Virus genome (UHGV): UHGV-0346646
DNA length: 11,385 nt
Reading direction: 5' to 3' (one strand)
From: a virus
Shown: piece after piece, positions 1 through 11,385 of the stretch
Layout of the letters: each line of letters begins with the position of its first letter
Position numbering within the stretch: position 1 is the first letter of the stretch
The notes under the pieces: model-generated
What the model was told of the DNA's origin: nothing
Seen by the model: only the letters and a program-made list of their open reading frames with translations
Databases searched by the model: none
Made by a program: the position numbers and the translations under genes

Positions 1-642
1 CGCTTCCACGGCGTTATTGATTACGCGCTTGCTGAAAGTGGCCCTGTGCTCTGAATAGATCGCCACCATTTCGCGGCTAAGTTCCATTGTGCTGACCGGA
101 CACCATACCCCGCCGCGCCATACGTGAACGATTTCACTTTCAGGATGTACGCAAACGCCATCAAAGCGATCGGCAAGCAGCTGCGCGCGCTCACTGTCCG
201 CCATCTGCGAAAGTTGCGCCTTTTGCTTTACCGGAAGCTCAATGACCAGACCATCAGAAAGATTCTGGCGCTCACGGGCCAGATATTCGCGCCAGTTCTC
301 CACCTTCTGACCGTGCATACCATCAGGGTAAAAATTTGCATCCTGTACGCCTGCCGCCGCCAGCTTCTGGCCAATCGCCTTTATCATTACTGGCGCAAGA
401 TATCCGGCCCTGAATATGCGCACGGATTTTCTGCCTTCCGGCACAATTTGCAGCTTATCCAGTTCTGATAACTGCTGCTCCCCAAGCCACACAGGAGGCT
501 CATTATCTCCGGCCATACGCGCATCATGTTCCTGCCATTGTTTCGCGTGTGCCCAGGCATCACTACCCGCAAAAATAATGACTTCTGTTCCTTTGTGTTT
601 TATGCCGCGTGACTGCTGTTTTACGTTCGGTGCCAGTTTCAT
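1..642 (-). CDS. hypothetical protein, 5-prime part only (gene continues past window start)
   Basis: ATG at 642-640 overlaps the stop of the upstream gene (ATGA). Frame stays open for all 214 codons down to position 1; checked by hand translation (MKLAPNVKQQSRGIKHKGTEVIIFAGSDAWAHAKQW...VWRGGVWCPVSTMELSREMVAIYSEHRATFSKRVINNAVEA). Absent from the ORF track because it has no stop inside the window. Function not recognised. Confidence 0.5.
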   Translation of the reverse strand, partial: MKLAPNVKQQSRGIKHKGTEVIIFAGSDAWAHAKQWQEHDARMAGDNEPPVWLGEQQLSELDKLQIVPEGRKSVRIFRAGYLAPVMIKAIGQKLAAAGVQDANFYPDGMHGQKVENWREYLARERQNLSDGLVIELPVKQKAQLSQMADSERAQLLADRFDGVCVHPESEIVHVWRGGVWCPVSTMELSREMVAIYSEHRATFSKRVINNAVEA

Positions 643-938
643 TTTTTACCCCTGAATCCTTTAATCATGGTTTTCATCTTCTGAATATTGGCGCGTGCTT
701 TCTCCCTGCTGGTGGGCACGTTACGCGGTACGGCCTGCACAAGAGAAAAATCACGGTCGAACTGATAAACAGGCATCACGCAATCATATTCGTAGCCTTC
801 ACGACGGTAGGTTACGCGCCGTTCCTCCACGCCCTTAATCATTACCGTGCCGCCGTACTTATCGCGGTAAATATCACCGCGCATGAATTTAGTGCGAGTT
901 TTGCCACTGGCAGTTAAGCCAGAATATTTAAGTTTCAT
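639..938 (-). CDS. hypothetical protein (99 aa)
   Basis: ATG at 938-936 with GGAGAA upstream; stop overlaps the start of the next minus-strand gene (ATGA at 639-642). Part of a translationally coupled minus-strand operon. No recognisable motif. Confidence 0.5.
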   Translation of the reverse strand: MKLKYSGLTASGKTRTKFMRGDIYRDKYGGTVMIKGVEERRVTYRREGYEYDCVMPVYQFDRDFSLVQAVPRNVPTSREKARANIQKMKTMIKGFRGKK

Positions 939-943
939 TATTT

Positions 944-1177
944 TTATTCTCCGGTGTGGGGCGCTTTATACTGGTCGTGTAATGTCTCTATTTCCTGCAA
1001 CTCATTTATTACAGGCTCAAGAAGCGTTATTAATGCCGTGACAATCCTTGATTTCTGTTTATCACGTTCATTATCTCCAAGCGTTTCAAGACATATGCGC
1101 AATATTTCCAACATATTTTCACTGTGAGAAAGTGCAAGAAATGCGCGGTCTATTGTTTCGTGGTAAATATCACGCAT
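944..1177 (-). CDS. hypothetical protein (77 aa)
   Basis: ATG at 1177-1175 preceded by GGGGA; stop at 944-946 lies 5 nt before the next gene start. Protein-like composition. Confidence 0.5.
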   Translation of the reverse strand: MRDIYHETIDRAFLALSHSENMLEILRICLETLGDNERDKQKSRIVTALITLLEPVINELQEIETLHDQYKAPHTGE

Positions 1178-1178
1178 A

Positions 1179-1613
1179 TTAATCCCCGTCCGTCGTTTTT
1201 CTTAAAATAACCTCTGTCACGAAATCAGCATAATCGGCGGCGATATTCAGTACATCAAGCCCCGTTGATTTATATTCTCTCGTGGAAAGTAAGAAAAAAT
1301 CCGCTCTAATAAGCTCTGGCATTGACGAAAGCGCATCAGCCGCATCATCAGGAACGCCGGAAAATTCCTGTTTCAGGGAATTAAAACGATCATCACGCAT
1401 AACCCCCCCATTTTCACAATCAGCAACAAGAATATTTTTAGCGTCATTCAGCGACCGCGTTGCGATGTATCGGATACATTCCAGGGCGAACTGTGTCCGG
1501 TCTTTCTGTTCTTCTCCCTGCGCAAGCTCTGCCGTGCATTCAATATCAATAAGCGCGTGCATCAGCGTAGTGAGTGCGGCGGCGGCTGCGTCCGGTGTGG
1601 TTTTATTGCACAT
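1179..1613 (-). CDS. hypothetical protein (144 aa from the ATG at 1613; track ORF starts further upstream at 1667)
   Basis: Internal ATG at 1613 is preceded by GGAGGGG at good spacing; the 1667 start has no Shine-Dalgarno. Overlaps the stop of the upstream gene by 11 nt. Function not recognised. Confidence 0.5.
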   Translation of the reverse strand: MCNKTTPDAAAAALTTLMHALIDIECTAELAQGEEQKDRTQFALECIRYIATRSLNDAKNILVADCENGGVMRDDRFNSLKQEFSGVPDDAADALSSMPELIRADFFLLSTREYKSTGLDVLNIAADYADFVTEVILRKTTDGD

Positions 1614-1833
1614 GTACCCCTCCGCATTTTTTTTCGTTAGAAATAAGCGTTCTTCTTTCCTGTTCATCGCTCAGGAATACGCAGACCTCACCGCTAAGGC
1701 GTTTAAGTAAGCCGATGATTGCCCCTGATTCGCTGTCGGTCATCATGCCAGGGTAATCCTCTGCCAGTGCGCAAATAACTTCGATTTGGTGGGCGCGTTC
1801 TGCTGCCTGTTGTAGTGTGATTTCCTGGCTCAT
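1603..1833 (-). CDS. hypothetical protein (76 aa)
   Basis: ATG at 1833-1831 overlaps the stop of the upstream gene (ATGA); GGGGG upstream. Confidence 0.45.
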   Translation of the reverse strand: MSQEITLQQAAERAHQIEVICALAEDYPGMMTDSESGAIIGLLKRLSGEVCVFLSDEQERRTLISNEKKCGGVHVQ

Positions 1834-2030
1834 AAGCCTACCCCCTGACGAATACGGGCAGCAAATACCATCACGCAGCCAGCCGGAGATTGCTGGCGTG
1901 CTTCCTGTTCGCTGGTGGCCTCAATGGTAATCACGCGCGGTTGTGCCGTGCTCAGGGCGATAAAACGCCAGATGTATTTATTCAGGTTGTGCGAGTCCCG
2001 CCCTTGCGGGTGTGTGGTATGATTTAACAT
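1830..2030 (-). CDS. small protein (66 aa), possibly Icd-like; family assignment is tentative
   Basis: ATG at 2030-2028 with GAGG 5-6 nt upstream; first gene of the minus-strand operon, downstream of a strong predicted promoter. It is also the C-terminal 66 codons of the long track ORF 1830..3116, which I consider a read-through artefact. Confidence 0.5.
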   Translation of the reverse strand: MLNHTTHPQGRDSHNLNKYIWRFIALSTAQPRVITIEATSEQEARQQSPAGCVMVFAARIRQGVGL

Positions 2031-2067
2031 AGCTACCTCGATACTTTCGCTATCGTTGGTGGTTAGA

Positions 2068-2100
2068 AGCCCTGCGAGTGGTAACGACACTTGCGGGGCT
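2068..2100. promoter_or_regulatory. 13-bp-arm inverted repeat (AGCCCTGCGAGTG / CACTTGCGGGGCT, 7-nt loop) in the leader of the minus-strand operon
   Basis: Read directly: the arms pair fully if two G-U wobbles are allowed. Sits between the predicted minus-strand promoter and the start at 2030. Confidence 0.4.
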
Positions 2101-2127
2101 TTGCATTTATGCACCTTGATAATCTCA

Positions 2128-2168
2128 AGGTGTAGCCCACTATATGCTTTAGGTGTGGCCCACGTCAA
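2128..2168 (-). promoter_or_regulatory. predicted sigma70 promoter for the minus-strand small-gene operon, overlapped by two direct repeats (AGGTGTAGCCCAC 2128-2140 and AGGTGTGGCCCAC 2151-2163)
   Basis: On the minus strand: -35 TTGACG (2168-2163), 18-bp spacer, -10 TATAGT (2144-2139). The direct repeats overlap the spacer and the start site, as operator sites would. Confidence 0.4.
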
Positions 2169-2170
2169 GG

Positions 2171-2199
2171 GTTTTATTTGTGCTTTTTCTGTGTATACT
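2171..2199 (+). promoter_or_regulatory. possible promoter for the ribbon-helix-helix gene
   Basis: -10 TATACT at 2194-2199; the -35 is weak (GTTTTA region). Divergent from the minus-strand promoter. Confidence 0.3.
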
Positions 2200-2229
2200 G
2201 TCCCCCACCAATCCAACAGAGGAATAGAA

Positions 2230-2409
2230 ATGGCAACGGGTACAACAAACGCAAAATCACAAGCTCTAAAGGCTCGTGTACCACACGAAATAGTAAACGC
2301 CATGGAATCAGTGAAAGAATCAGGCGAAAGCACATCACAATTCATCATTGCGTCAATGCAAGGCGAGATCAAACGCCGCCAGCGCCGCAAGGCCAAAGAG
2401 CAGGAGTAA
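2230..2409 (+). CDS. ribbon-helix-helix (Arc/MetJ/CopG-like) DNA-binding protein, 59 aa
   Basis: ATG at 2230 with AGAGGAA Shine-Dalgarno. Protein MATGTTNAKSQALKARVPHEIVNAMESVKESGESTSQFIIASMQGEIKRRQRRKAKEQE has the strand-helix-helix pattern typical of RHH repressors. Followed by tandem plus-strand terminators. Confidence 0.6.
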   Translation: MATGTTNAKSQALKARVPHEIVNAMESVKESGESTSQFIIASMQGEIKRRQRRKAKEQE

Positions 2410-2466
2410 CCATCACCAGCGCCGTGGTGTGAGTAACTACGGCGCATTGCTATGCAGGACAACACA

Positions 2467-2640
2467 ATGACCGATAAAGAATTGACCAAAACATTATCAC
2501 CGGCACGGAAAAGACGGCGCAGAAAGATAGAGCATGAATCAGAAAGATTCGCGCCATGTGCTTTTGCCCTTGAGCAATTCCTTAAAGAGTACAGGGAAAA
2601 GCGCTCATTGCAGGTATGGCAACGAACTGAACCTGACTGA
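2467..2640 (+). CDS. possible small basic protein (57 aa)
   Basis: ATG at 2467 with a weak AGGA upstream; Lys/Arg-rich (SPARKRRRRK). Lies between the RHH gene and the plus-strand terminators. Weakly supported. Confidence 0.3.
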   Translation: MTDKELTKTLSPARKRRRRKIEHESERFAPCAFALEQFLKEYREKRSLQVWQRTEPD

Positions 2641-2719
2641 TTGCATTGCCCACCAGCCGCAAATGTGGCATTGTTGGCAATGCTCATGCGTTGGGGATAA
2701 CGTGTAGCTTGTGTCGAGG

Positions 2720-2748
2720 GGCCACCGTAGCGGGTGGCCTTTGTTTTG
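2720..2748 (+). terminator. rho-independent terminator
   Basis: Stem GGCCACC / GGTGGCC with loop GTAGCG, followed by TTTGTTTTG. Confidence 0.6.
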
Positions 2749-2843
2749 CCCGTTATTCGGCAATTGTGGCGCTTCTCCACATGGTTGATATAATCCCACT
2801 GCTCAGATTCATTTTTTGCGCAGTAGGTTAATTGTTCACAAAG

Positions 2844-2877
2844 GCGCTCCGGCAACGGGGCGCTTTTTGTTTTTATT
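2844..2877 (+). terminator. rho-independent terminator (second of a tandem pair)
   Basis: Stem GCGCTCCG / CGGGGCGC (one G-U) with loop GCAA, followed by TTTTTGTTTTTATT. Confidence 0.6.
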
Positions 2878-2882
2878 AGTTT

Positions 2883-3116
2883 GTAGAAACCTGACTCAGA
2901 GATAATGCTCATATTCTGATTGCCGTCAGGGGTGTAAGTTAAATTTACTCCCTTTTTATCATCAAACATCTGCAACGCTCTGGCGTTAACAATATTGGTT
3001 TCACTCCCGCCAGTAAGGCCGGAAATAACCGGAATAATTTCGGCAAAATTTTGCAGATTCTGTTTTTCAGGACGAACGAAGCCCCGCCCTTGTTCGGGAG
3101 AATATCCAGTATTCAT
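2883..3116 (-). CDS. BRO-N / antirepressor-like N-terminal domain ORF, probably truncated or degenerate
   Basis: First ~78 codons of track ORF 1830..3116 (…DDKKGVNLTYTPDGNQNMSIISESGFYKLI) resemble the C-terminal half of a BRO-N domain from memory. The similarity ends where the plus-strand terminator at 2844-2877 is encoded; the remaining ~350 codons have Cys/Trp/Arg-rich antisense-like composition. True end unknown. Confidence 0.3.
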
Positions 3117-3168
3117 GGTTAGATCTCTGTATTAGTGGATGGGTGGCGGCTGTGTGCCGCCAGCCTGA

Positions 3169-3357
3169 TTAGTGAACTGCCTCGCAGCTGTCCTTCCATG
3201 CCAGAACTTCGGATAAAGACCAGCCAACGGAACGACCGCCCAGCTTACGCCGTGATGGGAATTGTCCGGCTTTTTCCAGGTGGTACCGACATGAGCGGCT
3301 CAGGCCTGTAAGTTGCTGACATTCTTTTTCACGTATAAAGCGATCTGTGCTTAACAC
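3169..3357 (-). CDS. alpA: AlpA-family (prophage CP4-57-type) transcriptional regulator / excisionase-like HTH protein
   Basis: GTG start at 3357-3355 preceded by GGGGGA. Protein (…QQLTGLSRSCRYHLEKAGQFPSRRKLGGRSVGWSLSEVLAWK) matches the AlpA pattern TG.SR.T.Y…G.FP…KLG.RSVGW..SE…W. Sits next to the integrase, as in P4-like islands. Confidence 0.85.
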   Translation of the reverse strand: MLSTDRFIREKECQQLTGLSRSCRYHLEKAGQFPSRRKLGGRSVGWSLSEVLAWKDSCEAVH

Positions 3358-3640
3358 AATTCCCCCTTTGTTGTTTCTTAAAGAGTCATTGGGTGGATTA
3401 TTGGGTTGGGTTGTGTCGGATTGTGTCAGGGTGTTTGTGGAATGGCAAACACTGGCGGCGGTCGTTTTACAGAAGCAGGGGAAATGAGAATAAAAACTCT
3501 TTTAATTCATTATGATGCAAAGGCATAAAATTTTACTTTTACGCCTTTTTTACATATTTTTAAGAGTGATTCGCCAGTGTATAAAAAAACAGTACACCTA
3601 TAAAAATCAAATGGTTATTACGATGGCTGATTTTTAACCC

Positions 3641-3700
3641 GTTGTTCCATTTTGTTCCTTGTTGTTCGTCGTTGTGTCTCGTTGTTTCACGTTGTCCGCA
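3641..3700. repeat. cluster of short direct repeats (CGTTGTT/CGTTGTC units) between the integrase and alpA
   Basis: Read directly: gttgttccattttgttccttgttgttcgtcgttgtgtctcgttgtttcacgttgtcc. Related TTGTGTC units occur at 3400-3440. Confidence 0.5.
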
Positions 3701-3722
3701 TCCTGAAAAATCGCAAAAAAAA

Positions 3723-4970
3723 TTATATTTCTCTGGCTATTGGCAATGTGGTTACGTTTTCATGTGTTCCCGCCAGTATCCCTAACCGCTCCGTCCACAT
3801 ATCCAGCGCGTCACGTTTCGCATCCAGATAACGGGAATGGTTATAGACTCGTTGCATCCCTGGCATCTGATGACCTGTAAGCTGCTCCACGACGTGAGGA
3901 TCCACGCCTAAATCGTTCAGCATCGTTGTAAAGGTGCGCCGGATGTCATGCAGTGACCAGTGAGGGTGTTTTAGCCTCCTGTGCGCTAATCTGCCGTACT
4001 GCGACACGCTTGTTTCCTGTTTCACTTCCCCCAGCAATAAGCCCGTGTGCCTGTTCTGCTCCACCAGCTGCGTGACGAACGGCAGTATTGCTTCCGGTAT
4101 GGGCCGGAATATTGCCACCTTCGTTTTGCTGTGTTCTTTCGGCACGGTCCAGAGCATTTCGGTAAAATCCCACTCGCTGATCTCCGATAACCTCAGTTCT
4201 ACCGTCCGGCATCCGAAAACAATCAGGAGGCGGATTAGTGCGACGTAGTAAGGGGAAAATATTTTTTTGTCCAGTGCCTGCAATAATTCGCCAAGTTCTT
4301 TGGTGCTTAAGACGCGCTCGCTTATATCCGGTTTTTTCCCAACGTCCGCCACACTCATATCATCAAGAACGTTGCTGATTGCATAGCGCCGCCTCCGGCA
4401 GAACTTAAGCGCCTGTTTGCACGTCTGTAGCAAGAATCCGGCAGTAACAGGCGTTCGCTTTGCCACCTGGTCAAAACAGGCCAGCCAGTGCCGTAGCTCG
4501 CATTTATCCAGCGGCATAGCACCAATGTGCTGTATTACGTGATTATTAAGGCGCTTTTTCAGGGCGGCATAATCCACGCGGTTTTCCTTTGCGTACGACT
4601 CAAGCCAGTAGGTGAGCGCATCGCCAACCGTTACCGGCTTTAACGCTTCCTGTACGGTGTAATTCATTTCATGACGTGGATTTTTCCCCTCTGCCAGCCA
4701 TGCGCGACACTGGGCGGCTTTTTCCCTGGCTGATTTCAGGCTCAGATCAGGATAATTTCCCAGCTTAATGCGTTCCGGTGGTGCCCCCCTTCCCGTTCCG
4801 GCCCTGTAAGTGAAATACCAGGTTAAAAGGCCACTGGTTGAATGCCTGACGCTCAGGTTTCCACCGTCATTAAGAAAGGCTGTTTTTTGGGCGGGTGTGC
4901 CGTTGATTTTCCTCAGCTGTGTATCGCTCAGTTTGTTAAGTGCTCTGCTCATAATTTTGATTCCGGTCAT
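3723..4970 (-). CDS. int: P4-type tyrosine integrase (site-specific recombinase, phage integrase family)
   Basis: Conserved C-terminal catalytic region HDIRRTF…GHQMPGMQRVYNHSRYLD (H-x-x-R and catalytic Tyr context) and an N-terminal arm-binding-type region like P4/CP4-57 integrases. Start is ambiguous: GTG 4973, ATG 4970 or ATG 4952 (MSRALNKLSDTQ…). Confidence 0.9.
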   Translation of the reverse strand: MTGIKIMSRALNKLSDTQLRKINGTPAQKTAFLNDGGNLSVRHSTSGLLTWYFTYRAGTGRGAPPERIKLGNYPDLSLKSAREKAAQCRAWLAEGKNPRHEMNYTVQEALKPVTVGDALTYWLESYAKENRVDYAALKKRLNNHVIQHIGAMPLDKCELRHWLACFDQVAKRTPVTAGFLLQTCKQALKFCRRRRYAISNVLDDMSVADVGKKPDISERVLSTKELGELLQALDKKIFSPYYVALIRLLIVFGCRTVELRLSEISEWDFTEMLWTVPKEHSKTKVAIFRPIPEAILPFVTQLVEQNRHTGLLLGEVKQETSVSQYGRLAHRRLKHPHWSLHDIRRTFTTMLNDLGVDPHVVEQLTGHQMPGMQRVYNHSRYLDAKRDALDMWTERLGILAGTHENVTTLPIAREI

Positions 4971-4972
4971 CA

Positions 4973-5009
4973 CAATTAACTACACCATTAACTACACCGA
5001 TCGTTGCAC
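4973..5009. repeat. direct repeat copy 1 (contains tandem AACTACACC units), immediately upstream of and overlapping the integrase start
   Basis: caattaactacaccattaactacaccgatcgttgcac. A near-identical copy lies 234 bp away at 5207-5242; the flanks share a degenerate ACAACGTG-GAACAA motif. Confidence 0.7.
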
Positions 5010-5206
5010 AAAGGGCTACAACGTGAAACAAGCTGGAACAAGGAAAATCACAAATCTGTTTATAATCAAAAACATAATGAACAACCTGAAACATTATGAA
5101 ACGGCAAAAAACACTAATTGATAAAATATGTCCTTTTATCACTACATCAAGGCAAGCCATTGATTTAATTAAATGATTTGCACTGCAAAAAGTGCTAAAA
5201 ATCGCA

Positions 5207-5242
5207 AATTGACTACACCATTAACTACACCGATCGTTGCAC
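5207..5242. repeat. direct repeat copy 2 of the integrase-upstream repeat
   Basis: aattgactacaccattaactacaccgatcgttgcac; one mismatch against copy 1. Confidence 0.7.
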
Positions 5243-5451
5243 TGTATGAAACAACGTGGAACAAATAGACACAAGAAATATACAGGCGGGTCATCTTTCC
5301 AGGGGGAAGCGCGCCAATTCATGAGGGGCGTTAATGTCGATATGGGGATCCCCATAACGGGGCTACCTGGCTTTTTTCCGGTTAAATGTCAATCAGGCTG
5401 GTGGGTTTTACATACCCTTGATCACCGTAATGATGATCCAGATGTGCGCCT

Positions 5452-5507
5452 TTCCACCAATGGTGGAAAAGCCCACAGCAGGCCGCCCAGCCTCCCCCAA
5501 TGGGGGA
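5452..5507. repeat. pair of related GC-rich palindromes (TTCCACCAATGGTGGAA at 5452-5468; TCCCCCAATGGGGGA at 5493-5507)
   Basis: Read directly; centres 41 bp apart. A third palindrome, ATGGGGATCCCCAT, is at 5342-5355. Candidate protein-binding or recombination core sites in the non-coding junction. Confidence 0.5.
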
Positions 5508-5515
5508 TTGTGGAA

Positions 5516-5684
5516 GAATCAACGGGTTAGGCCTTAATGGGCTGCGTGGTAATTATCAGCATCCAGAATATGACGGGTTATGTTTCCGACCTCTTCAATT
5601 TGAGGTTCCCGAAAATATCAACGGGTTAGGCTGGTTTCCCCGATGTTCGCCGCTGGCGAATTTCGAAAATATCAACCAGTTACC
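5516..5684. repeat. three direct repeats of an ATCAAC(G/C)(G/A)GTTA(G/C)(G/C) unit (5516-5533, 5608-5632, 5662-5684)
   Basis: gaatcaacgggttaggcc; cccgaaaatatcaacgggttaggct; ttcgaaaatatcaaccagttacc. The last copy overlaps the stop of the 93-aa gene. Confidence 0.5.
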
Positions 5685-5961
5685 GCCGCAACCGCTCCGG
5701 CTTCTTCCAGTGGTACGTAATTTTCTCCGTTTCCCGATACAGTGCCACGCGGCGATTGTAGGCCAGCATTTCAAGAACGCGGATCCGTATGTTGCGCATA
5801 TCCACATCATTAAGCTGGATACCATTACGGCGAATCACCTCAGCAACCACACGAACATAATTTTCGGCGGTCACGCTGTCCGGCTGCGTGGTCTGTTCGT
5901 CGGCCTGCTGGCTGATTCCGGCAACGCGGCGGATTAATCGCAGTATTTCGGCTTCTGTCAT
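5680..5961 (-). CDS. hypothetical protein (93 aa), last gene of the packaging-side module
   Basis: ATG at 5961-5959 with GGGGG 5 nt upstream; the track ORF 5680..6159 extends upstream through the cos copy and is not credible there. Protein MTEAEILRLIRRVAGISQQ… has no recognised motif. Confidence 0.5.
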   Translation of the reverse strand: MTEAEILRLIRRVAGISQQADEQTTQPDSVTAENYVRVVAEVIRRNGIQLNDVDMRNIRIRVLEMLAYNRRVALYRETEKITYHWKKPERLRR

Positions 5962-5994
5962 TGTGCCCCCATCGTTCTGATAGTCTGGTGTCGT

Positions 5995-6066
5995 CGGGTC
6001 CTTCCTGGAATTATGGCCCGTTACGGGGCGGCGACCTCGCGCGTTTTCACTATTTATGAAAATTTT
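5995..6066 (+). other. lambda-type cos site, copy 1 (cosN with cohesive-end sequence GGGCGGCGACCT at 6026-6037)
   Basis: gttacgGGGCGGCGACCTcgcgcgttttcactatttatgaaaattttt is near-identical to the lambda genome junction (…GTTACG / GGGCGGCGACCTCGCGGGTTTTCGCTATTTATGAAAATTTTCCGG) as I remember it. Confidence 0.75.
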
Positions 6067-6075
6067 TCGGGATCC

Positions 6076-6172
6076 ATGTCCGGTTTCTCTGCAAGTTAAC
6101 CATATGAAAAATATAAAAACATGCTTTCCATGAACCGGACATGCGCAAAAAACAGACACTAAAACCGGACAT
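6076..6172 (+). promoter_or_regulatory. cosB-like repeats: ATGTCCGGTT (6076-6085, inverted), AT-rich spacer, AACCGGACAT (6134-6143) and AACCGGACAT (6163-6172)
   Basis: One inverted plus two direct 10-bp sites with an A/T-rich stretch between the inverted pair, paralleling lambda cosB (R3 - IHF site I1 - R2 - R1). Lies directly after cosN copy 1. Confidence 0.5.
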
Positions 6173-6240
6173 CGAACCAGTTAACCGAAAGTGTGCACAA
6201 ATCACATGCATTGCTGCGAGTGATTAACAAGTTATCGGCT

Positions 6241-6675
6241 TTACTGTTCTGTATCGGCTGATTGCTCCATGCTGGCACGGCGAACGCTTACGGCATGACG
6301 CCACCCAGCCAGAAAGCCAGCCATTTTATTTCGTGCCTTGCTCACATCTTCCGGTGAATAGCCGTAAATCTGCAAACCTTCATCAAATCGATGTTCTGTT
6401 TCTTCACTGGAGTACTCGTCACGCTCAGATGAAAGCAGCCTGGCAAACATAATTTTTTCCAGCGCACTGGTTTCTACGTGATATCTGATGGCCTCAAGAC
6501 GGCTTTTACCTGAAGACCAAAGCAATGTATGCCCGATGTGATAACCGCCAGACTTTCCGCGATCCGCATTAAGATACGGCATCCCCTGTTTGGTCCATGC
6601 GCGAATAGTGGTTCTGTTAACCTTGAAATGTTCAGCTATTTCCTGCTGACTTACAAAACAAGCTTTATCAATCAT
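6241..6675 (-). CDS. lambda Nu1-like small terminase-type protein (N-terminal winged-HTH DNA-binding domain), 144 aa
   Basis: ATG at 6675. N-terminus VSQQEIAEHFKVNRTTIRAWTKQGMPYLNADRGKSGGYHIGHTLLW aligns by eye with lambda Nu1 KKQLADIFGASIRTIQNWQEQGMPVLRGGGKGNEVLYDSAAVIKW. Shorter than Nu1 (181 aa). Lies about 90 bp downstream (minus strand) of cosN copy 2. Confidence 0.7.
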   Translation of the reverse strand: MIDKACFVSQQEIAEHFKVNRTTIRAWTKQGMPYLNADRGKSGGYHIGHTLLWSSGKSRLEAIRYHVETSALEKIMFARLLSSERDEYSSEETEHRFDEGLQIYGYSPEDVSKARNKMAGFLAGWRHAVSVRRASMEQSADTEQ

Positions 6676-6744
6676 AATGTTACCTTAACTGCATGGTTAA
6701 ATATTAATCAAGTGGTGGTGGTGTCACCTTCACGGAAAAACGTC

Positions 6745-6807
6745 ATAAATAGCGAAAACCCGCGAGGTCGCCGCCCCGTAACGGGCCATAATTCCAGGAA
6801 GGACCCG
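6745..6807 (-). other. lambda-type cos site, copy 2, inverted relative to copy 1 (cohesive-end sequence at 6765-6776 read on the minus strand)
   Basis: Reverse complement reads cgggtccttcctggaattatggcccgttacgGGGCGGCGACCTcgcgggttttcgctatttatg; 47 bp are identical to copy 1 and about 70 bp match with two mismatches. Confidence 0.75.
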
Positions 6808-6808
6808 T

Positions 6809-6830
6809 AAAAAAGCCGGATTTCTCCGGC
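6809..6830 (-). terminator. rho-independent terminator ending the capsid operon
   Basis: Minus-strand hairpin GCCGGA-GAAA-TCCGGC followed by TTTTTT, just after the stop at 6837. Confidence 0.65.
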
Positions 6831-6836
6831 CTTGTC

Positions 6837-7250
6837 TCAGATGGTTTTCAGTATGCGATCGATGTCGCCGTCATCGCCCTGGTTTCTGCCATCGTATGCC
6901 ATGCCAGCTGATACGGCTTGCGGGCTGTGCATGTCCATAAAGTTTTCAAAGGCTGCGGTAAGCTCTGGTGCAACCTTTGGGCGCTCCTGCTCTATGGTCA
7001 TGTTCAGGATTTCACGAGCATTATCGACGCTAATACATGGCACGTTTGCCATTGCACGTAACAGCGGCTGATAGTCTTTATGCTCATGAAGCGCCATAAT
7101 CGCATCAGCGCGCGGCTTGTCCTGCTCTTCCAGTTTGTTTAGTTGATATACGGCCTCATAGGTTGATAAACCTCTGTCAGCCATTGCCCGCGCTTCGGCT
7201 TTAAATTTACTCGCCAGCGGTAGCGTCATGATGCTTTCATTCGTTGCCAT
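6837..7250 (-). CDS. hypothetical protein (137 aa), last gene of the capsid operon; possible scaffold-like or capsid accessory protein (speculative)
   Basis: ATG at 7250 with GGGGG 5 nt upstream; predicted helix-rich and acidic. Function not recognised. Confidence 0.55.
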   Translation of the reverse strand: MATNESIMTLPLASKFKAEARAMADRGLSTYEAVYQLNKLEEQDKPRADAIMALHEHKDYQPLLRAMANVPCISVDNAREILNMTIEQERPKVAPELTAAFENFMDMHSPQAVSAGMAYDGRNQGDDGDIDRILKTI

Positions 7251-7262
7251 CGTTCCCCCTGC

Positions 7263-7598
7263 TTATCGGGCCAGCGGCTGAACGGATACGCCGGAACCCG
7301 CAAAGGCGGCGCATTTTTTCGCATCGGTGTCGACGCTCTCAGGCCAGTTAACGGCGGCAATATTGAATATCCCCGTCTTGTAACACTGTGCTGATTTCTG
7401 CTTTGACGTGTCCACAGGGTACGAGGTCAGATAAACAGCCTTGCCAGATTCCTGACCATCCCACGGCTTAAACTCGCCATTGTCCGCCAGCATCAGCGGG
7501 GTAAATTCCTGAATAACGCCAGCATCAGCGGCAAAATGTACCAGCGTCGTGGCGACCTGCTGACTGCCTGCAAATAACTCAATGTATGGAGTGTCCAT
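7263..7598 (-). CDS. head decoration protein, lambda gpD family
   Basis: TPLMLADNGEFKPWDG…YKTGIFNIAAVNWPES…AKKCAAFAGSGVSV aligns by eye with lambda gpD TPLMLDTSSRKLVAWDG…YKSGTFRYEDVLWPEA…TKKRTAFAGTAISI. Similar length (111 vs 110 aa). GGGGG Shine-Dalgarno. Confidence 0.8.
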   Translation of the reverse strand: MDTPYIELFAGSQQVATTLVHFAADAGVIQEFTPLMLADNGEFKPWDGQESGKAVYLTSYPVDTSKQKSAQCYKTGIFNIAAVNWPESVDTDAKKCAAFAGSGVSVQPLAR

Positions 7599-7609
7599 AG
7601 AATCCCCCG

Positions 7610-8665
7610 TTAACCAATTTTGACGGTAACAAATTTGCGAATATCTGCCGGAACCGGCTGCGGTGCGCTGTGCGTCTGCACGTACTCAATCGCCGGATCG
7701 CCGTCCTCAATCCAGTTTTTCGGGTAAAACATGTTTTGCGTTGCGCCCGTTCTTACTGCGTCCTGATCCATAATCGCACCATAGGCCACCAGCCCTTTAT
7801 TGTTGGTGTTGCCCAGGACAAGCAAATCAGGCTCAAGGAAATATTTTTCTGTGCCGTCGCTGTCAGTGTATTTGCCGGAATAGACGATAAGGGCAATATC
7901 GCCCAGATAGCCTTTAAAGCTCACCACTTCGCCCAGGTTTTTACAGGCCAGCTCTGCGGCGGACTCTGAACCACGGGAAAGATCGTACAGCTCACGGAAT
8001 TTTTTAAAGCTGCGTAACGTTCGCCATACCTCAGCGCCCATAATCATGACGTTTGCGGGGCAACCAGCCTGATCGGCGTATAGTTCGATATCATAGATTG
8101 GATCGTGGGTTTCTTTGTCCTGCTCTGACCATTTTTTCCCGTCGGCCTGCTCTATGATGTTTTTTTCCGGTATCTTCCAGTCGATTTCATAGCGCTCTAT
8201 GCCTTCGCCTTCAATGATGTTTTTTCCGGTCGTTACCGCATTTACCGCCAGCCATTCCACGCGCGCTTTTATGGCGTTTATCTGGCGGCGCATATTGCCA
8301 GTAATCAGGCGCATACGGCGATAGGTAGGGTCGTTAAGCTGTGCCGGATCTTCTCCAGCCATGCGCATGATGGTTTTCGTTGGATCGATTTCGTGCTTTG
8401 GCTTCATGTAGCCAGGTTTAATCGTGCTGGTTTCGTACCCTTTATCGCGCTGAACCTGGCTACCCACCATAGGCGAACAAAACGCCGACATGGTGACTTC
8501 TTCAATGTCCAGGGTATCCAGCATGATGTTTTGCGTGCTGAATGTCGCCACGTTCGGGAAAAACAGCGTGGTAAACAGCGGACTGAATTTAAATTCCGCA
8601 ATATCCCCGCGATTCAGGTACGCAAAAAGCTGGTTAGTGTTAAGTGCCATTGCTTTTACTGTCAT
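7610..8665 (-). CDS. major capsid protein, lambda gpE family
   Basis: 351 aa with FKFSPLFTTLFF, PGYMKPKHE, DPTYRRMR, SFKGYLGDIALIVYSG, YPKNW and GDPAIE motifs matching lambda gpE (FKFDPLFLRLFF, PGYVKPKHE, DPAYRRRR, SYKGMYGDVAIVVYSG, YPKNW, GDPARE) at the same relative positions. Confidence 0.9.
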   Translation of the reverse strand: MTVKAMALNTNQLFAYLNRGDIAEFKFSPLFTTLFFPNVATFSTQNIMLDTLDIEEVTMSAFCSPMVGSQVQRDKGYETSTIKPGYMKPKHEIDPTKTIMRMAGEDPAQLNDPTYRRMRLITGNMRRQINAIKARVEWLAVNAVTTGKNIIEGEGIERYEIDWKIPEKNIIEQADGKKWSEQDKETHDPIYDIELYADQAGCPANVMIMGAEVWRTLRSFKKFRELYDLSRGSESAAELACKNLGEVVSFKGYLGDIALIVYSGKYTDSDGTEKYFLEPDLLVLGNTNNKGLVAYGAIMDQDAVRTGATQNMFYPKNWIEDGDPAIEYVQTHSAPQPVPADIRKFVTVKIG

Positions 8666-8871
8666 TATTCACCCCCGTGAACCTGATTCATACCCAGCGC
8701 CGCGCGTAAATAGGCGCGTACCTGCCAGCCTGTTGACGGCTCAACCATCGCCAGCGGATCAAGTCCTGCCGCAATGCCTGCTTTTACGTTCTGCTGGTGG
8801 CGTTCCTTGAGCGCCTTCACGATGTCGGGGCTTATGTACACCGAAACACCGCCTTTTTTCTCTTCAGCCAT
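8665..8871 (-). CDS. hypothetical protein (68 aa), first gene of the capsid operon
   Basis: ATG at 8871; stop overlaps the capsid gene start by 1 nt (TAATG). Shine-Dalgarno spacing is long (AGAGGA ~12 nt upstream), so the start is uncertain. Confidence 0.45.
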   Translation of the reverse strand: MAEEKKGGVSVYISPDIVKALKERHQQNVKAGIAAGLDPLAMVEPSTGWQVRAYLRAALGMNQVHGGE

Positions 8872-8904
8872 AGTAAGAAATTCCTCTTTGACTTAAAAAA
8901 TCAT

Positions 8905-8953
8905 AACTGGATGTTCATCCAGCTCTGATTATAATCATGATTGCATTTTGTGC
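8905..8953 (-). promoter_or_regulatory. predicted capsid-operon promoter with overlapping palindromes
   Basis: Minus strand: -35 TTGCAC (8953-8948), 16-bp spacer, -10 TATAAT (8931-8926) inside the palindrome GATTATAATC. The perfect inverted repeat CTGGATG-TT-CATCCAG (8905-8920) lies at about +1 to +16. Confidence 0.4.
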
Positions 8954-9036
8954 AATGATGTTGAGTTGCGTTGCAAATTATGAAATGATTATCCCGATCA
9001 TGTGTGTCAGTGCACCAAAAAGCCTCATATGCAAAA

Positions 9037-9073
9037 GCCCGATAAGCCACCTCTGACCTTATCGGGCTTTTTT
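9037..9073. terminator. orphan terminator-like hairpin in the 415-bp intergenic region
   Basis: GCCCGATAAG - 11-nt loop - CTTATCGGGC followed by TTTTTT on the plus strand (AAAA precedes it). No obvious plus-strand gene upstream. Confidence 0.35.
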
Positions 9074-9248
9074 ATCTGCCTGCAAAGATGTCGAACGAAA
9101 ATTAACCACAACCATCATCTTTTTTGCATCAAAACAATTAAAAACAATAAATTACGCTCATGATGATGATGACGATAAAATCACAAAAATGCGCTTTTTT
9201 CCGCGCCTCCCGCCCCGTGTTCAGGCCCACCCCGCCAGGAGGACCCGT

Positions 9249-9271
9249 AAAAAAGCCGGATTGCTCCGGCT
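9249..9271 (-). terminator. rho-independent terminator after the SSB gene
   Basis: Minus-strand hairpin AGCCGGA-GCAA-TCCGGCT followed by TTTTTT. Sequence is near-identical to the terminator module at 6791-6840. Confidence 0.6.
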
Positions 9272-9286
9272 TCTGTCTCTCGTCGC

Positions 9287-9709
9287 TTAAAACGGTATGT
9301 TATCCCCGTACGGATCATCATTCCCCGCCTGTTGTTTTGCCCTGTTCAGCGCGTCAGTAGCCTGGCCCTGTTGACCTTTTTTGCCGCCCAGTCGCGCCGT
9401 TCGCGCACTGATTACACTGTCTGCGATAACCTGCCAGCCCTGCCGCGTTTCTCCGTTCTGCCCAGTCCACTGGCTGATCTGCATGTTACCCGCCACGCTC
9501 AGGAGTTCACCCTTGCGGTGCCTTTCCAGTGCTTCGGCCTGTCTGCCAAATGCCAGGACGGATAACCACATCGTCGCCGTTCCGTCATCTGCCTGGCTGC
9601 ACGGAAGGGGGACCGCCATACGCGCCAGCGTCATCGGTGTGCCCTTGCTGGTCTGTTTTACCTGCGGGTCGTCCACCAGCCGCCCGTAAGCTGCTATCTG
9701 TGCTGTCAT
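9287..9709 (-). CDS. ssb: single-stranded DNA-binding protein (SSB, OB-fold)
   Basis: Aligns by eye with E. coli SSB: G.L..DP.V, W..V..FG..AE, RKG, W.G..G..R. C-terminal acidic tail ends NDDPYGDNIPF (compare SSB …DFDDDIPF). GAGGTGG Shine-Dalgarno. Confidence 0.75.
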   Translation of the reverse strand: MTAQIAAYGRLVDDPQVKQTSKGTPMTLARMAVPLPCSQADDGTATMWLSVLAFGRQAEALERHRKGELLSVAGNMQISQWTGQNGETRQGWQVIADSVISARTARLGGKKGQQGQATDALNRAKQQAGNDDPYGDNIPF

Positions 9710-9765
9710 GATTCCACCTCTCCGGTTTTAACGTTGATGGTTGTTACCTGTTCCGCTTCGGCAAT

Positions 9766-9984
9766 CTACCGCTCTGTCAGCGTGGCAAAATTTGCCGCCG
9801 TCGTGGTCATGAATGCGCTTATCAGTTCGGGATGTGCTTTCGCGTATCCTTCCCCCGCGTGGCGGTCTATCGTTCTGATTGCCACCTTTAAAGCGTGCTC
9901 TGTCATGTCTAACGCGCGATATTTCGGTTCTGTTCTGTCTCTGCGTTTTTTGAGTGATTTATTAAATTTCCCTGAAGTGTGCAT
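9766..9984 (-). CDS. hypothetical small protein (72 aa or shorter from an internal Met)
   Basis: ORF between the origin and ssb; the Shine-Dalgarno is poorly placed, so the start is uncertain. Confidence 0.4.
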   Translation of the reverse strand: MHTSGKFNKSLKKRRDRTEPKYRALDMTEHALKVAIRTIDRHAGEGYAKAHPELISAFMTTTAANFATLTER

Positions 9985-10033
9985 ATTTATTTTTACCCCC
10001 TCGTTTAAAAAGTTTTGAGTTGTGCCTCCCCTT

Positions 10034-10259
10034 GTCTACCTTATCTACCTTAGTGGCCCTCATGCCAGTAATGGCGCGGCTTTCAGCGGGGTAGAGTGCT
10101 TTTATCCACTATCTACCCCGTGTCTACCTCCCTGTCTGATTCAGGTAAAATCAGGTAGAGAGGGTAGATAGTGGGTAGACAGTAAAAAAAGGCTATCTAC
10201 CTAACTTAATGCACTGAATTAAATGTATTTTTCTTTACTCAGGTAGACAGGGTAGACAG
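10034..10259. repeat. iteron cluster, putative replication origin (about 11 copies of GGTAGA(C/G/T)AG in both orientations)
   Basis: TCTACC at 10035, 10044, 10112, 10123 and 10196; GGTAGA at 10089, 10154, 10163, 10174, 10242 and 10251. Immediately downstream of the primase/helicase stop at 10273. Confidence 0.7.
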
Positions 10260-10272
10260 CAATTACAAAAAA

Positions 10273-11385
10273 TTATAAAAACGCGTCGCACTCGTCTGTT
10301 GTTATTGCGTTAGTCTGCGTTACCCCCTTAACTTTCCGCGTAATATATTCATGTCCGTAAACTTTTGCGGCAGGCTTCATAGCCTTTCCAAAGTCATTTA
10401 CGTTTAGCGGTTTGCTCCTGCCTGCGTATGCCATAAACGCCAGATAGACGCGGTAAAGGCTGTTCCTGGTCGTGTACTTCACTGAATCGCCACCGCCCCC
10501 CATCATCAGGCCGCGCGCTTCCTCCAGAAAATTCAGGAACTGGCAAAACTCAATAACCGGATCCGTCTGTTGCTTTATTGCCAGTGCTTCATCACCGTCA
10601 CGCTGTTCCAGTAGTAAAGCCCGTGCCTTCTCAGGGTCGGTAAAGTTCGCCAGCAATCGGCGGATAATGACAGGGATTTCAGCCGCGATCTTTTCCGGTA
10701 GCTCCCTGTCTTTTTCGGCCTCACTGACGATATTGTCGAAACGGAAAATCACGCGACGACGTGCCACACCTCCGGCCCGTTCGGTGAATATCATCGGGTT
10801 ATTGTTGGTCGCCAGCACCACCGCCCTGATTACAGCCGTGAAACGCTTTTCGTATTTCGGGTTAATTTCCACGGGGTCACCGCCCGTGATTTTCTTGATG
10901 CCCGTTCCTTCGCCTGTATATTTCGGCTGGTCAGCCAGGACGATAAGACGACTCCCGACAACCTGCGCACGTCCACCAGCATCATCAAGCGATGTCATTT
11001 CAGCGCTTACCGTGTTCTGTTTCCCTGCCAGAAGGCTGGCTATGTGCGTGAATGTACTTTTACCGCTCCCGCCGTCTCCGGTGGCCTCAATAAACATCTG
11101 CCAGTCGTACCGGTTCGCCATAATCATGTACAGCGCGGCACATATACGCATCATCTTGCGCGGGTCTTTTCCGGCTGCGTGCTCAAGCCATTTATGAAAG
11201 TTTGGCGCGTTATCGCGGATGTTCTCCCCTGGTGCTGGTGGCGTGTACTCAATGCCGTTGTGCGTGGTGATCCAGTTCTCCGGCGTGTGCGGGGAAAATC
11301 CCCCCGTTTTCAGGTCAAGCGCACCATTGGCGAACGGCAGCAAATCGCCGGACGGCTCGCCCATTGGTTCGGCAATAACTTTTAA
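10273..11385 (-). CDS. P4-family phage/plasmid primase C-terminal region with D5_N-like and SF3 helicase (P-loop) domains; 3-prime part only (start lies beyond window end)
   Basis: Walker A GDGGSGKST; upstream D5_N-like LLPFANGALDLKTGGFSPHTPENWIT; Walker B-like LIVLADQ. The frame is open upstream of the first in-window Met to position 11385, so the gene starts outside the window. Confidence 0.85.
   Translation of the reverse strand, partial: LKVIAEPMGEPSGDLLPFANGALDLKTGGFSPHTPENWITTHNGIEYTPPAPGENIRDNAPNFHKWLEHAAGKDPRKMMRICAALYMIMANRYDWQMFIEATGDGGSGKSTFTHIASLLAGKQNTVSAEMTSLDDAGGRAQVVGSRLIVLADQPKYTGEGTGIKKITGGDPVEINPKYEKRFTAVIRAVVLATNNNPMIFTERAGGVARRRVIFRFDNIVSEAEKDRELPEKIAAEIPVIIRRLLANFTDPEKARALLLEQRDGDEALAIKQQTDPVIEFCQFLNFLEEARGLMMGGGGDSVKYTTRNSLYRVYLAFMAYAGRSKPLNVNDFGKAMKPAAKVYGHEYITRKVKGVTQTNAITTDECDAFL

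What the first reader, a model, noticed from the sequence alone, without database searches (positions are those of the whole stretch)
9287..9709. Element-encoded SSB with a conserved IPF C-terminal tail
The short SSB keeps the acidic C-terminal tip (…DNIPF) that host SSB uses to recruit partner proteins. It is placed between the origin and the capsid operon and has its own terminator. It may support element replication or compete with host SSB for partners during helper infection.
Basis: partly seen in the sequence, partly recalled or inferred. Interest (0 to 1): 0.5.

Follow-up and report, generated by a model that had tools for sequence, protein, structure and literature searches.

The report
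Satellite island's own SSB gene
This is a real but ordinary single-stranded-DNA-binding protein gene in the replication module of a well-known type of E. coli phage satellite (an EcCICFT073-like PICI); databases already annotate it, and its role in the satellite has never been tested.

Summary
The ORF at 9287..9709 (- strand, 140 aa, ending ...YGDNIPF) is real and is a bacterial-type SSB. It passes the Pfam SSB and TIGR00621 cut-offs. Its AlphaFold model is an OB fold whose 50 best PDB matches are all SSBs. Three of the four aromatic ssDNA-stacking residues of E. coli SSB are kept. dN/dS is 0.13 over 48 alleles, and D-x-IPF is nearly universal among close relatives.

The window is the circularised form of an 11.4-kb EcCICFT073-family PICI that sits between roxA and phoQ. 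Gene order on the - strand is primase, iteron origin, small 92-aa gene, ssb, terminator, capsid/Rpp operon.

RefSeq already calls this protein an SSB. About 30% of complete E. coli genomes carry a relative. EcCICFT073 itself has one in the same place, and one paper lists SSB in the replication category of Gram-negative PICIs.

Function is inferred. Most likely it is an accessory SSB for island replication that reaches host replisome proteins through its tip. It looks dispensable: 12 of 76 islands with the same primase lack an intact copy. Competition with host SSB could not be tested. Novelty: already known. Interest: low.

The parts
9287..9709 (-). ssb: 140-aa bacterial-type SSB. OB fold over residues 1-104, short linker about 105-130, tip DDPYGDNIPF.
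   Evidence: ORF. Pfam, TIGRFAM, PHROG and PDB hits. AF2 model and Foldseek. dN/dS 0.135. RefSeq WP_000126681.1 'single-stranded DNA-binding protein'.
9717..9723 (-). Shine-Dalgarno GGAGAGG, 7 nt before the ssb ATG.
   Evidence: Read directly from the sequence. Invariant in four islands.
9249..9272 (-). Intrinsic terminator T1: AAGCCGGA-gcaa-UCCGGCUU plus a U run. It ends the early/replication operon.
   Evidence: Fold dG -24 kcal/mol, z -3.15. Kept in relatives, with a compensatory version in L052. It follows perC in CFT073. The pattern scan missed it, probably because the stem takes up part of the U run.
9766..9984 (-). Small upstream gene, PHROG 1231, function unknown. It is 92 aa in relatives, where its stop overlaps the ssb ATG (ATGA). 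Here it is cut to 72 aa by a GAG-to-TAG change at 9766-9768.
   Evidence: Directly upstream of ssb in 77 of 84 loci. No Pfam or PDB match. AF2 gives a helical hairpin at pLDDT 63.5.
10028..10262 (.). Candidate origin: GGTAGAYAG / CTRTCTACC iterons in both orientations, directly 3' of the primase gene.
   Evidence: Repeat families D1, D2, D4 and I1-I6. 10 of the 14 pattern hits lie here, against 2.15 expected in the whole window. The layout matches the published Gram-negative PICI origins (PMC6092414).
10273..11385 (-). C-terminal two thirds of the P4-type primase-helicase (D5_N, DUF5906, Pox_D5). The gene wraps round the circular junction and starts at window 642.
   Evidence: Full 584-aa gene in L002. 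Permutation shown.
9034..9075 (.). Second strong hairpin (T2), terminator-like on both strands.
   Evidence: Fold z -3.36 on the - strand and -4.86 on the + strand. Conserved in CFT073, clone D i14, L029 and L055.
8665..8871 (-). First gene (68 aa) of the capsid/packaging operon. It marks the downstream border of the ssb region.
   Evidence: Followed by the gpE-like capsid gene 7610-8665, the gpD-like gene 7263-7598 and Rpp 6241-6675.

Best explanation
The gene encodes a functional bacterial-type SSB belonging to the replication module of an EcCICFT073-family phage-inducible chromosomal island. It lies at the end of the rightward early operon: alpA ... primase-helicase, iteron origin, small 92-aa gene, ssb, terminator.

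Inferred mechanism: after helper-phage induction the island excises. Its primase-helicase opens the origin next to ssb. The island's SSB then coats the exposed single strands. Through its C-terminal D-x-IPF tip it contacts the host proteins that normally dock on host SSB, which by established knowledge of E. coli SSB include the chi subunit of Pol III, PriA and exonuclease I. This gives the island extra SSB capacity while helper and satellite replicate together.

What is shown and what is inferred:
- Shown: fold, family, conservation, purifying selection, position.
- Inferred: co-transcription with the early operon, ssDNA binding, partner binding, benefit to replication.

The role is accessory, not essential.
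For: Identity as an SSB. The residues matching W54, F60 and W88 of E. coli SSB (W48, F54, W81 here) are invariant in 20 family members. dN/dS is 0.135. The tip D-x-IPF is kept while the linker varies by indels.

Synteny: in 84 loci with this SSB, a replication initiator ends 450-570 nt upstream in nearly all of the 70 where one was found. The initiator is of two unrelated kinds: primase-type in 50 and RepA helicase in 20. The small gene abuts ssb in 77 loci. The downstream genes vary: capsid in 32, PerC in 7, others elsewhere. More distant relatives at 50-65% identity in Klebsiella and Enterobacter circular elements also follow a large gene: an annotated primase-helicase in Klebsiella, an unannotated 951-aa ORF in Enterobacter.

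The reverse survey gives the same picture: 64 of 76 islands with this primase carry the small gene plus ssb. EcCICFT073 has an SSB at the same place, 78% identical. PMC10111431 places Primase, SSB and DUF5906 of Gram-negative PICIs in the replication category, next to mapped origins.

The lineage is not borrowed from sequenced phages: the best hit among 50,697 phage records is 32% identical. It is not a copy of host ssb either, at 29% identity.
Against: No experiment exists on this protein. 12 of 76 islands with the same primase lack an intact ssb through clean loss, an internal deletion (L133) or an apparent ~2.7-kb insertion splitting the small gene-ssb pair (L137). The published EcCICFT073 clone, described as rep gene plus ori, maintains a plasmid in DH5alpha, so the host SSB suffices for basic replication.

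The equivalent of W40 is Cys or Ser, and the tetramer-interface His55 is Leu, so binding mode and oligomeric state may differ from E. coli SSB. The tip carries fewer acidic residues than the host's. The main PICI papers do not mention the gene.
Confidence: 0.6

Rival explanations
1. Interference or hijacking factor. The island SSB mainly competes with host SSB for ssDNA or for the SSB-tip partners (exonuclease I, RecQ, chi, PriA). That would slow helper-phage replication or recombination and favour the satellite.
For: The tip keeps the IPF end that host partners recognise. From established knowledge, the helpers lambda and phi80 encode no SSB of their own and depend on the host protein. A phage SSB-like protein with an FDDDIPF tip has been proposed to interface with host ExoI (bioRxiv 10.64898/2026.04.29.721553). 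PICIs are known to interfere with their helpers by other means, such as Rpp.
Against: The gene always travels with the initiator-origin block, not with the interference and packaging genes, which vary independently. Published interference by EcCICFT073 is explained by Rpp (PMC6739421). The tip is less acidic than the host's, which by established knowledge would be expected to weaken, not strengthen, partner binding.
Confidence: 0.15
2. Immunity-related role. The island SSB acts as a trigger, decoy or shield for SSB- or ssDNA-sensing anti-phage systems, or protects island ssDNA and ends from host nucleases during transfer.
For: Several defence systems are reported to sense phage SSBs: Retron-Eco8, DARNA and DRT10 (abstracts). 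Satellites often carry defence-related cargo.
Against: No PADLOC family matches the SSB or its neighbours. The gene sits in the replication module, not in the accessory regions. There is no specific evidence in the sequence.
Confidence: 0.08
3. Passenger gene with little present function in the island's life cycle. It is inherited along with the conserved segment next to the origin.
For: 16% of islands with the same primase have lost or broken it. The clone described as rep gene plus ori replicates without any mention of ssb. In this very window the coupled upstream gene carries a nonsense mutation.
Against: dN/dS is 0.135 in the OB domain and in the tip alike. The aromatic residues and the terminal IPF are invariant across alleles that differ by up to about 25%. 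The gene is kept next to two unrelated initiator families and across genera.
Confidence: 0.12

Closest known systems
SSB of EcCICFT073, the prototype Gram-negative PICI (WP_000126698.1, 136 aa, E. coli CFT073)
   Same: Same integration site (roxA | phoQ). Same gene order: primase, origin, small gene, ssb, then capsid (c1499), decoration protein (c1500), Rpp. 78% identical. Same start overlap with the small gene. Tip GDDIPF.
   Different: CFT073 has the other linker variant (TQGNQPPAGG instead of QATDALNRAKQQ). It also has a perC gene between ssb and the terminator, which this island lacks.
E. coli chromosomal SSB (PDB 1eqq, 178 aa)
   Same: OB fold. W54, F60 and W88 equivalents are kept. Disordered linker. 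The C-terminus ends in IPF.
   Different: Only 29% identical. The linker is about 25-30 residues instead of about 60 and is not Gly/Gln/Pro-rich. W40 is replaced by Cys/Ser and His55 by Leu. The tip is DNIPF, not DDDIPF.
SSBs of temperate phages and other mobile elements (PHROG 44; e.g. Pseudomonas phage F116 SSB, Bacillus phage SPP1 G36P)
   Same: A short, element-encoded SSB. In general such proteins keep a host-type tail and work with an element-encoded initiator or helicase and the host elongation machinery (PHROG 44 E=3e-37; PMC3561973 abstract).
   Different: No sequenced phage holds a close relative: the best is 32% identical. This lineage is found in 6-15-kb satellite-sized elements of Enterobacteriaceae.
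P4 satellite replication (alpha primase-helicase)
   Same: The island's initiator matches the P4-family primase-helicase models, just under the curated NCBIfam cut-off (TIGR01613: 108.4 bits against 108.7, scored on the C-terminal 363 aa only). Replication is autonomous from an adjacent iteron origin.
   Different: From established knowledge, P4 encodes no SSB and uses the host protein. Here an SSB gene sits right after the origin.

Membership tests
Bacterial-type SSB (Pfam PF00436 / TIGR00621) | Sequence match to the family model above the curated cut-off | tested here: met
   PF00436: 55.9 bits against 26. TIGR00621: 59.4 bits against 53.95.
Bacterial-type SSB (Pfam PF00436 / TIGR00621) | OB fold like solved SSB structures | tested here: met
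   AF2 model: residues 1-104 at block-mean pLDDT 81-93. The top 50 Foldseek PDB hits are all SSBs, E down to 3e-9, TM (target-normalised) up to 0.80.
Bacterial-type SSB (Pfam PF00436 / TIGR00621) | Aromatic ssDNA-stacking residues (W40, W54, F60, W88 of E. coli SSB) | tested here: inconclusive
   W54, F60 and W88 equivalents (W48, F54, W81) are invariant in the family. The W40 position is Cys/Ser.
Bacterial-type SSB (Pfam PF00436 / TIGR00621) | Flexible linker followed by an acidic tip ending in (I/L)PF | tested here: met
   Residues 105-140 have pLDDT below 50. The tip is DDPYGDNIPF. D-x-IPF appears in most close relatives and D-D-x-[IL]-P-F in many wider ones.
Bacterial-type SSB (Pfam PF00436 / TIGR00621) | Homotetramer (His55-dependent interface in E. 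coli SSB) | not testable with these tools
   The His55 equivalent is Leu49. No multimer prediction was available.
Bacterial-type SSB (Pfam PF00436 / TIGR00621) | Binds ssDNA; the tip binds host partner proteins | not testable with these tools
   Needs biochemistry.
EcCICFT073-type Gram-negative PICI (the element that carries the gene) | Integrase plus AlpA at one end, with the main gene set (int to the packaging genes) on one strand, and a specific att site | tested here: met
   int at 3723-4973 and alpA at 3169-3357; the main gene set lies on the - strand (two small divergent ORFs, YlcI/YnfO-like and hypothetical, are annotated on the + strand). The 10-bp att core AAATATGTCC is at the circular junction 5124-5133. 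The site is the same one, roxA | phoQ, as in EcCICFT073.
EcCICFT073-type Gram-negative PICI (the element that carries the gene) | pri-rep gene followed directly by an iteron origin | tested here: met
   Primase-helicase. Iterons at 10028-10262. Published layout in PMC6092414.
EcCICFT073-type Gram-negative PICI (the element that carries the gene) | Rpp (redirecting phage packaging) and lambda-like capsid and decoration homologues; no terminase large subunit, portal or tail genes | tested here: met
   The 144-aa ORF at 6241-6675 hits PDB 6hlk RppC at E=5e-31. Phage_cap_E and HDPD domains. No terminase large subunit, portal or tail gene appears in the annotation of the near-identical island.
EcCICFT073-type Gram-negative PICI (the element that carries the gene) | Induction, replication and high-frequency transfer dependent on a helper phage | not testable with these tools
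   Shown for EcCICFT073 in the literature (PMC6092414), not for this allele.

The most novel reading that the evidence does not exclude
The SSB, possibly together with the co-translated 92-aa protein of unknown fold, is a satellite-specific tool and not a spare replication part. Its IPF tip would let it take over or titrate the host SSB partner network, or engage SSB-sensing immune systems, during helper infection. That would bias replication, recombination or immunity towards the satellite. The lineage is confined to satellite-sized elements of Enterobacteriaceae and absent from sequenced phages, which this reading would explain.
Probability: 0.12. Interest if true: 0.6.

Novelty: already known. 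Interest (0 to 1): 0.2.

Why it matters
It matters little as a discovery. The protein is already named in RefSeq, is present in about 30% of complete E. coli genomes, and sits in the prototype island EcCICFT073.

The useful points are modest:
- The PICI papers read here mention this gene only once, as a replication-category family, although it is a common part of the replication module (64 of 76 islands with this primase).
- It travels as a cassette with a small gene of unknown function, next to the origin, whichever initiator is present.
- Natural islands that lack it exist, so a comparison of replication and transfer with and without it would be easy to set up.

Tried and rejected
- Rfam scan of the whole window at E<=1 found only a chance miRNA hit, so no known RNA lies around ssb.
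- The consensus promoter/terminator scan missed the ssb terminator and found no - strand promoter between the primase gene and ssb. The terminator was confirmed by folding instead.
- PADLOC search of the SSB and five neighbouring proteins returned nothing, so this is not a catalogued defence system.
- Pfam, PDB and AlphaFold on the small upstream protein gave no family and only a moderate-confidence helical hairpin at pLDDT 63.5. I ran no fold search on it because such a model gives meaningless matches.
- The genome-contig scan returned only 5 loci because the peptide patterns were narrow. The cross-species picture therefore rests on these, on the plasmid hits and on the source names.
- Origin from a helper phage or from the host gene is rejected. 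No phage record exceeds 32% identity, and host SSB is 29% identical.
- The reading 'ssb has a private terminator' is rejected, because the same hairpin follows perC in CFT073.
- I checked whether the 168-bp segment after the terminator is a dispersed repeat. It is single-copy per island.

Full report
**1. The observation**

It is 140 aa, starts with ATG and ends ...NDDPYGDNIPF. A GGAGAGG Shine-Dalgarno lies 7 nt upstream.

The SSB assignment is secure:
- Pfam PF00436 scores 55.9 bits against a cut-off of 26.
- TIGR00621 scores 59.4 bits against 53.95.
- PHROG 44 'single strand DNA binding protein' gives E=3e-37.
- All 26 PDB sequence hits are named single-stranded DNA-binding proteins. The best is 1z9f at E=3.9e-11, and E. 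coli SSB 1eqq gives 1.3e-6.
- An AlphaFold model built on 20 family members gives an OB fold over residues 1-104, with block-mean pLDDT 81-93, and a disordered tail.
- The 50 best Foldseek matches in the PDB are all SSBs, with target-normalised TM up to 0.80.

**2. The protein in detail**

Compared with E. coli SSB it is 29% identical over the OB domain. I recalled the E. coli sequence from memory and verified it as identical to 1eqq.

The equivalents of W54, F60 and W88 are W48, F54 and W81. They are invariant in 20 family members spanning 77-89% identity to the window protein. The W40 position is Cys/Ser, and the tetramer-interface His55 is Leu.

The linker is short, about 25-30 residues, and comes in two variants joined by indels. 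The tip is conserved: among the 120 closest clusters the endings are GDNIPF 53, GDGIPF 18, GDDIPF 14 and EDEIPF 8, with a few others. The Asp four residues from the end and the final IPF are fixed in the great majority, while the residue between them is free.

Over 48 distinct alleles dN/dS is 0.135. It is similar in the OB domain (0.146), the linker (0.095) and the tip (0.152). This is a gene under purifying selection.

**3. What the window is**

The window is a circular permutation of an 11.4-kb island. Window 5124-11385 equals L002 9001-15262, and window 1-5133 equals L002 15263-20395. The shared 10 bases AAATATGTCC form the att core.

In the chromosome the island lies between phoQ and roxA. 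That is the site of EcCICFT073, the prototype Gram-negative PICI.

The gene order on the - strand is:
- int (3723-4973) and alpA (3169-3357)
- small genes, including an Icd-like one
- DUF4222 (639-938)
- primase-helicase (642..1, continuing at 11385..10273)
- iterons
- small gene (9984..9766)
- ssb
- 68-aa gene (8871..8665)
- lambda gpE-like capsid (8665..7610) and gpD-like decoration protein (7598..7263)
- 137-aa gene
- Rpp (6675..6241; PDB 6hlk at E=5e-31)

Several proteins are identical to those of CFT073.

**4. The layout around ssb**

*Origin.* The 235 bp after the primase stop hold GGTAGAYAG / CTRTCTACC iterons in both orientations. Ten of the 14 one-mismatch hits in the window lie in 10032-10259, against 2.15 expected in the whole window. 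This is the place and design of the published PICI origins (PMC6092414).

*Terminators.* Fourteen nucleotides after the ssb stop there is a hairpin, AAGCCGGA-gcaa-UCCGGCUU, followed by a U run (dG -24 kcal/mol, z -3.15). The pattern scan missed it, probably because the stem takes up part of the U run. The hairpin is kept in relatives, once with compensatory changes.

In CFT073 the same hairpin follows perC, the gene after ssb. It is therefore the terminator of the early operon and not a private ssb terminator. No promoter-like site was found on the - strand between the primase gene and ssb. I infer that ssb is the last gene of the early/replication transcript. A second strong hairpin (9034-9075) and a third (8905-8924) lie before the capsid operon.

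**5. Synteny**

I collected 84 loci with this SSB, mostly IMG/VR contigs of 6-15 kb. In them:
- The small gene lies directly upstream in 77.
- A replication initiator was found in 70, ending 450-570 nt upstream in nearly all of them. It is a primase-type protein in 50 (44-100% identical, with E. albertii at 27%) and an unrelated RepA helicase in 20.
- The downstream genes vary: capsid in 32, PerC in 7, others elsewhere.

More distant relatives at 50-65% identity in circular elements of Klebsiella and Enterobacter also follow a large gene: an annotated primase-helicase in Klebsiella and an unannotated 951-aa ORF in Enterobacter.

In the reverse direction, 76 loci have this primase and enough sequence downstream. 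Of these, 64 carry the small gene plus ssb. Twelve lack an intact ssb through clean absence, an internal deletion (L133), or an apparent ~2.7-kb insertion that splits the small gene and ssb (L137). Ten of the twelve keep at least part of the small gene.

So ssb belongs to the origin-proximal part of the replication module and is common, but it is dispensable.

**6. Distribution and origin**

A DNA-level relative is present in 1649 of 5426 complete E. coli genomes. Of 2103 places, 2100 are chromosomal, with up to 6 per genome, and the rows listed are annotated 'single-stranded DNA-binding protein'.

No record among 50,697 phage genomes exceeds 32% identity. The few plasmid hits look like satellite-type elements, judging from the two I inspected.

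In a library of 1.84 billion representatives, 5109 proteins match at E<=1e-3 but only 296 at 1e-10 and 11 at 1e-30. Many of the wider relatives also end in D-D-x-[IL]-P-F. The lineage is a compact branch of the SSB family that lives in satellite-sized elements of Enterobacteriaceae. It is neither a recent copy of the host gene nor a gene of sequenced helper phages.

**7. What the literature says**

The two founding papers on EcCICFT073 (PMC6092414, PMC6739421), the SatelliteFinder paper (PMC10085698), the cf-PICI preprint and the EcCIMP1 paper do not mention an SSB. PMC10111431 lists 'Primase, SSB and DUF5906' as the replication category of Gram-negative PICIs, located together with mapped origins.

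PMC6092414 reports that a clone described as the rep gene plus the ori site maintains a plasmid in DH5alpha. I could not check whether that clone included ssb. As described, the host SSB is enough for basic replication.

Phage SSBs or SSB-like proteins with host-type tips have recently been reported as triggers of defence systems: Retron-Eco8, DARNA and DRT10.

**8. Mechanism**

*Best-supported reading (confidence 0.6).* This is an accessory SSB of the island's replication module. It coats the strands opened at the adjacent origin by the island's primase-helicase or RepA. Through the IPF tip it contacts the host proteins that dock on host SSB. It would add SSB capacity when helper and satellite replicate together.
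- Shown: family, fold, selection, position.
- Inferred: co-transcription, ssDNA binding, partner binding, benefit.

*Rivals.*
- Competition with host SSB to the helper's cost (0.15).
- An immunity-related role (0.08).
- A passenger gene of little present use (0.12).

The independent variation of the interference and packaging genes argues against the first rival. The empty PADLOC result and the gene's position argue against the second. The low dN/dS argues against the third.

**9. Verdict**

The feature is already known: it is named in RefSeq, present in the prototype island, and listed once in the literature. Interest is low (0.2).

The only open points are the unstudied role of this common cassette and of its small partner gene.

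Noticed in passing
window 9766-9768 (- strand); ancestral gene frame 9706-9984: The small gene upstream of ssb carries a GAG-to-TAG nonsense change in this window. It is 72 aa here and 92 aa in a near-identical island (83-92 aa in CFT073 and clone D i14). In those relatives its stop overlaps the ssb start as ATGA, so translational coupling is lost here.
   Followed up: yes
window 9706-9984 (- strand); L002 13583-13861: The small partner protein has a basic N-terminus and a predicted helical hairpin at pLDDT 63.5. It has no Pfam, NCBIfam, PDB or PADLOC match and forms 166 clusters, almost all E. coli or Shigella. It abuts ssb in 77 of 84 loci, but it persists, at least in part, in 10 islands that have lost or broken ssb. 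Function unknown.
   Followed up: partly
window 5124-5133: The window is the circularised form of the island. The 10-bp att core AAATATGTCC is the junction. In the chromosome it begins within the phoQ stop codon.
   Followed up: yes
window 5995-6059 and 6743-6807: A 65-bp inverted repeat, 96.9% identical, flanks the rpp gene (6241-6675). Its purpose is unknown. It could be cos- or packaging-related, or a small mobile cassette.
   Followed up: no
window 9076-9243: A 168-bp non-coding segment lies between the two terminators after ssb. It is absent from islands with the shorter spacer (L029, L055, L052). It is present, mostly once, in 564 E. coli genomes at 80-100% identity, with no Rfam match. 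It could be a small RNA or a regulatory insert.
   Followed up: partly
window 8899-8980 (- strand): A conserved block with TTGCA-type repeats and a perfect TATAAT (8928-8933) lies just before the capsid operon. The TATAAT overlaps the 5' arm of a long hairpin plus U run (8905-8924; a perfect 15-bp stem in CFT073). A promoter joined to a terminator-like hairpin recalls lambdoid late antitermination. Whether a helper or island factor reads through was not tested.
   Followed up: no
between window 9286 and 9250, compared with L004 11960-12208: EcCICFT073 carries a PerC-family regulator gene between ssb and the terminator (Pfam PerC E=6e-36). This island lacks it.
   Followed up: yes
L006-L008 (Klebsiella chromosomes): Klebsiella relatives of the SSB, 69-70% identical, end in ...YDDDF instead of IPF. 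That is a different acidic tip ending in Phe.
   Followed up: no
L001 15060-16475 (E. coli clone D i14), and 20 IMG/VR loci: The same small-gene plus ssb cassette (83-100% identical) sits behind a RepA-family helicase instead of the primase. Initiator and origin are therefore swapped while the cassette next to them is kept.
   Followed up: yes
window 1830-3116 (- strand): The mechanical ORF list shows a 428-aa ORF here. RefSeq annotates only its last 157 codons (window 1830-2303) as an Icd-like protein in L002, and a 66-aa version in CFT073. The long ORF is probably not a gene. The true start of the Icd-like gene is unclear.
   Followed up: no
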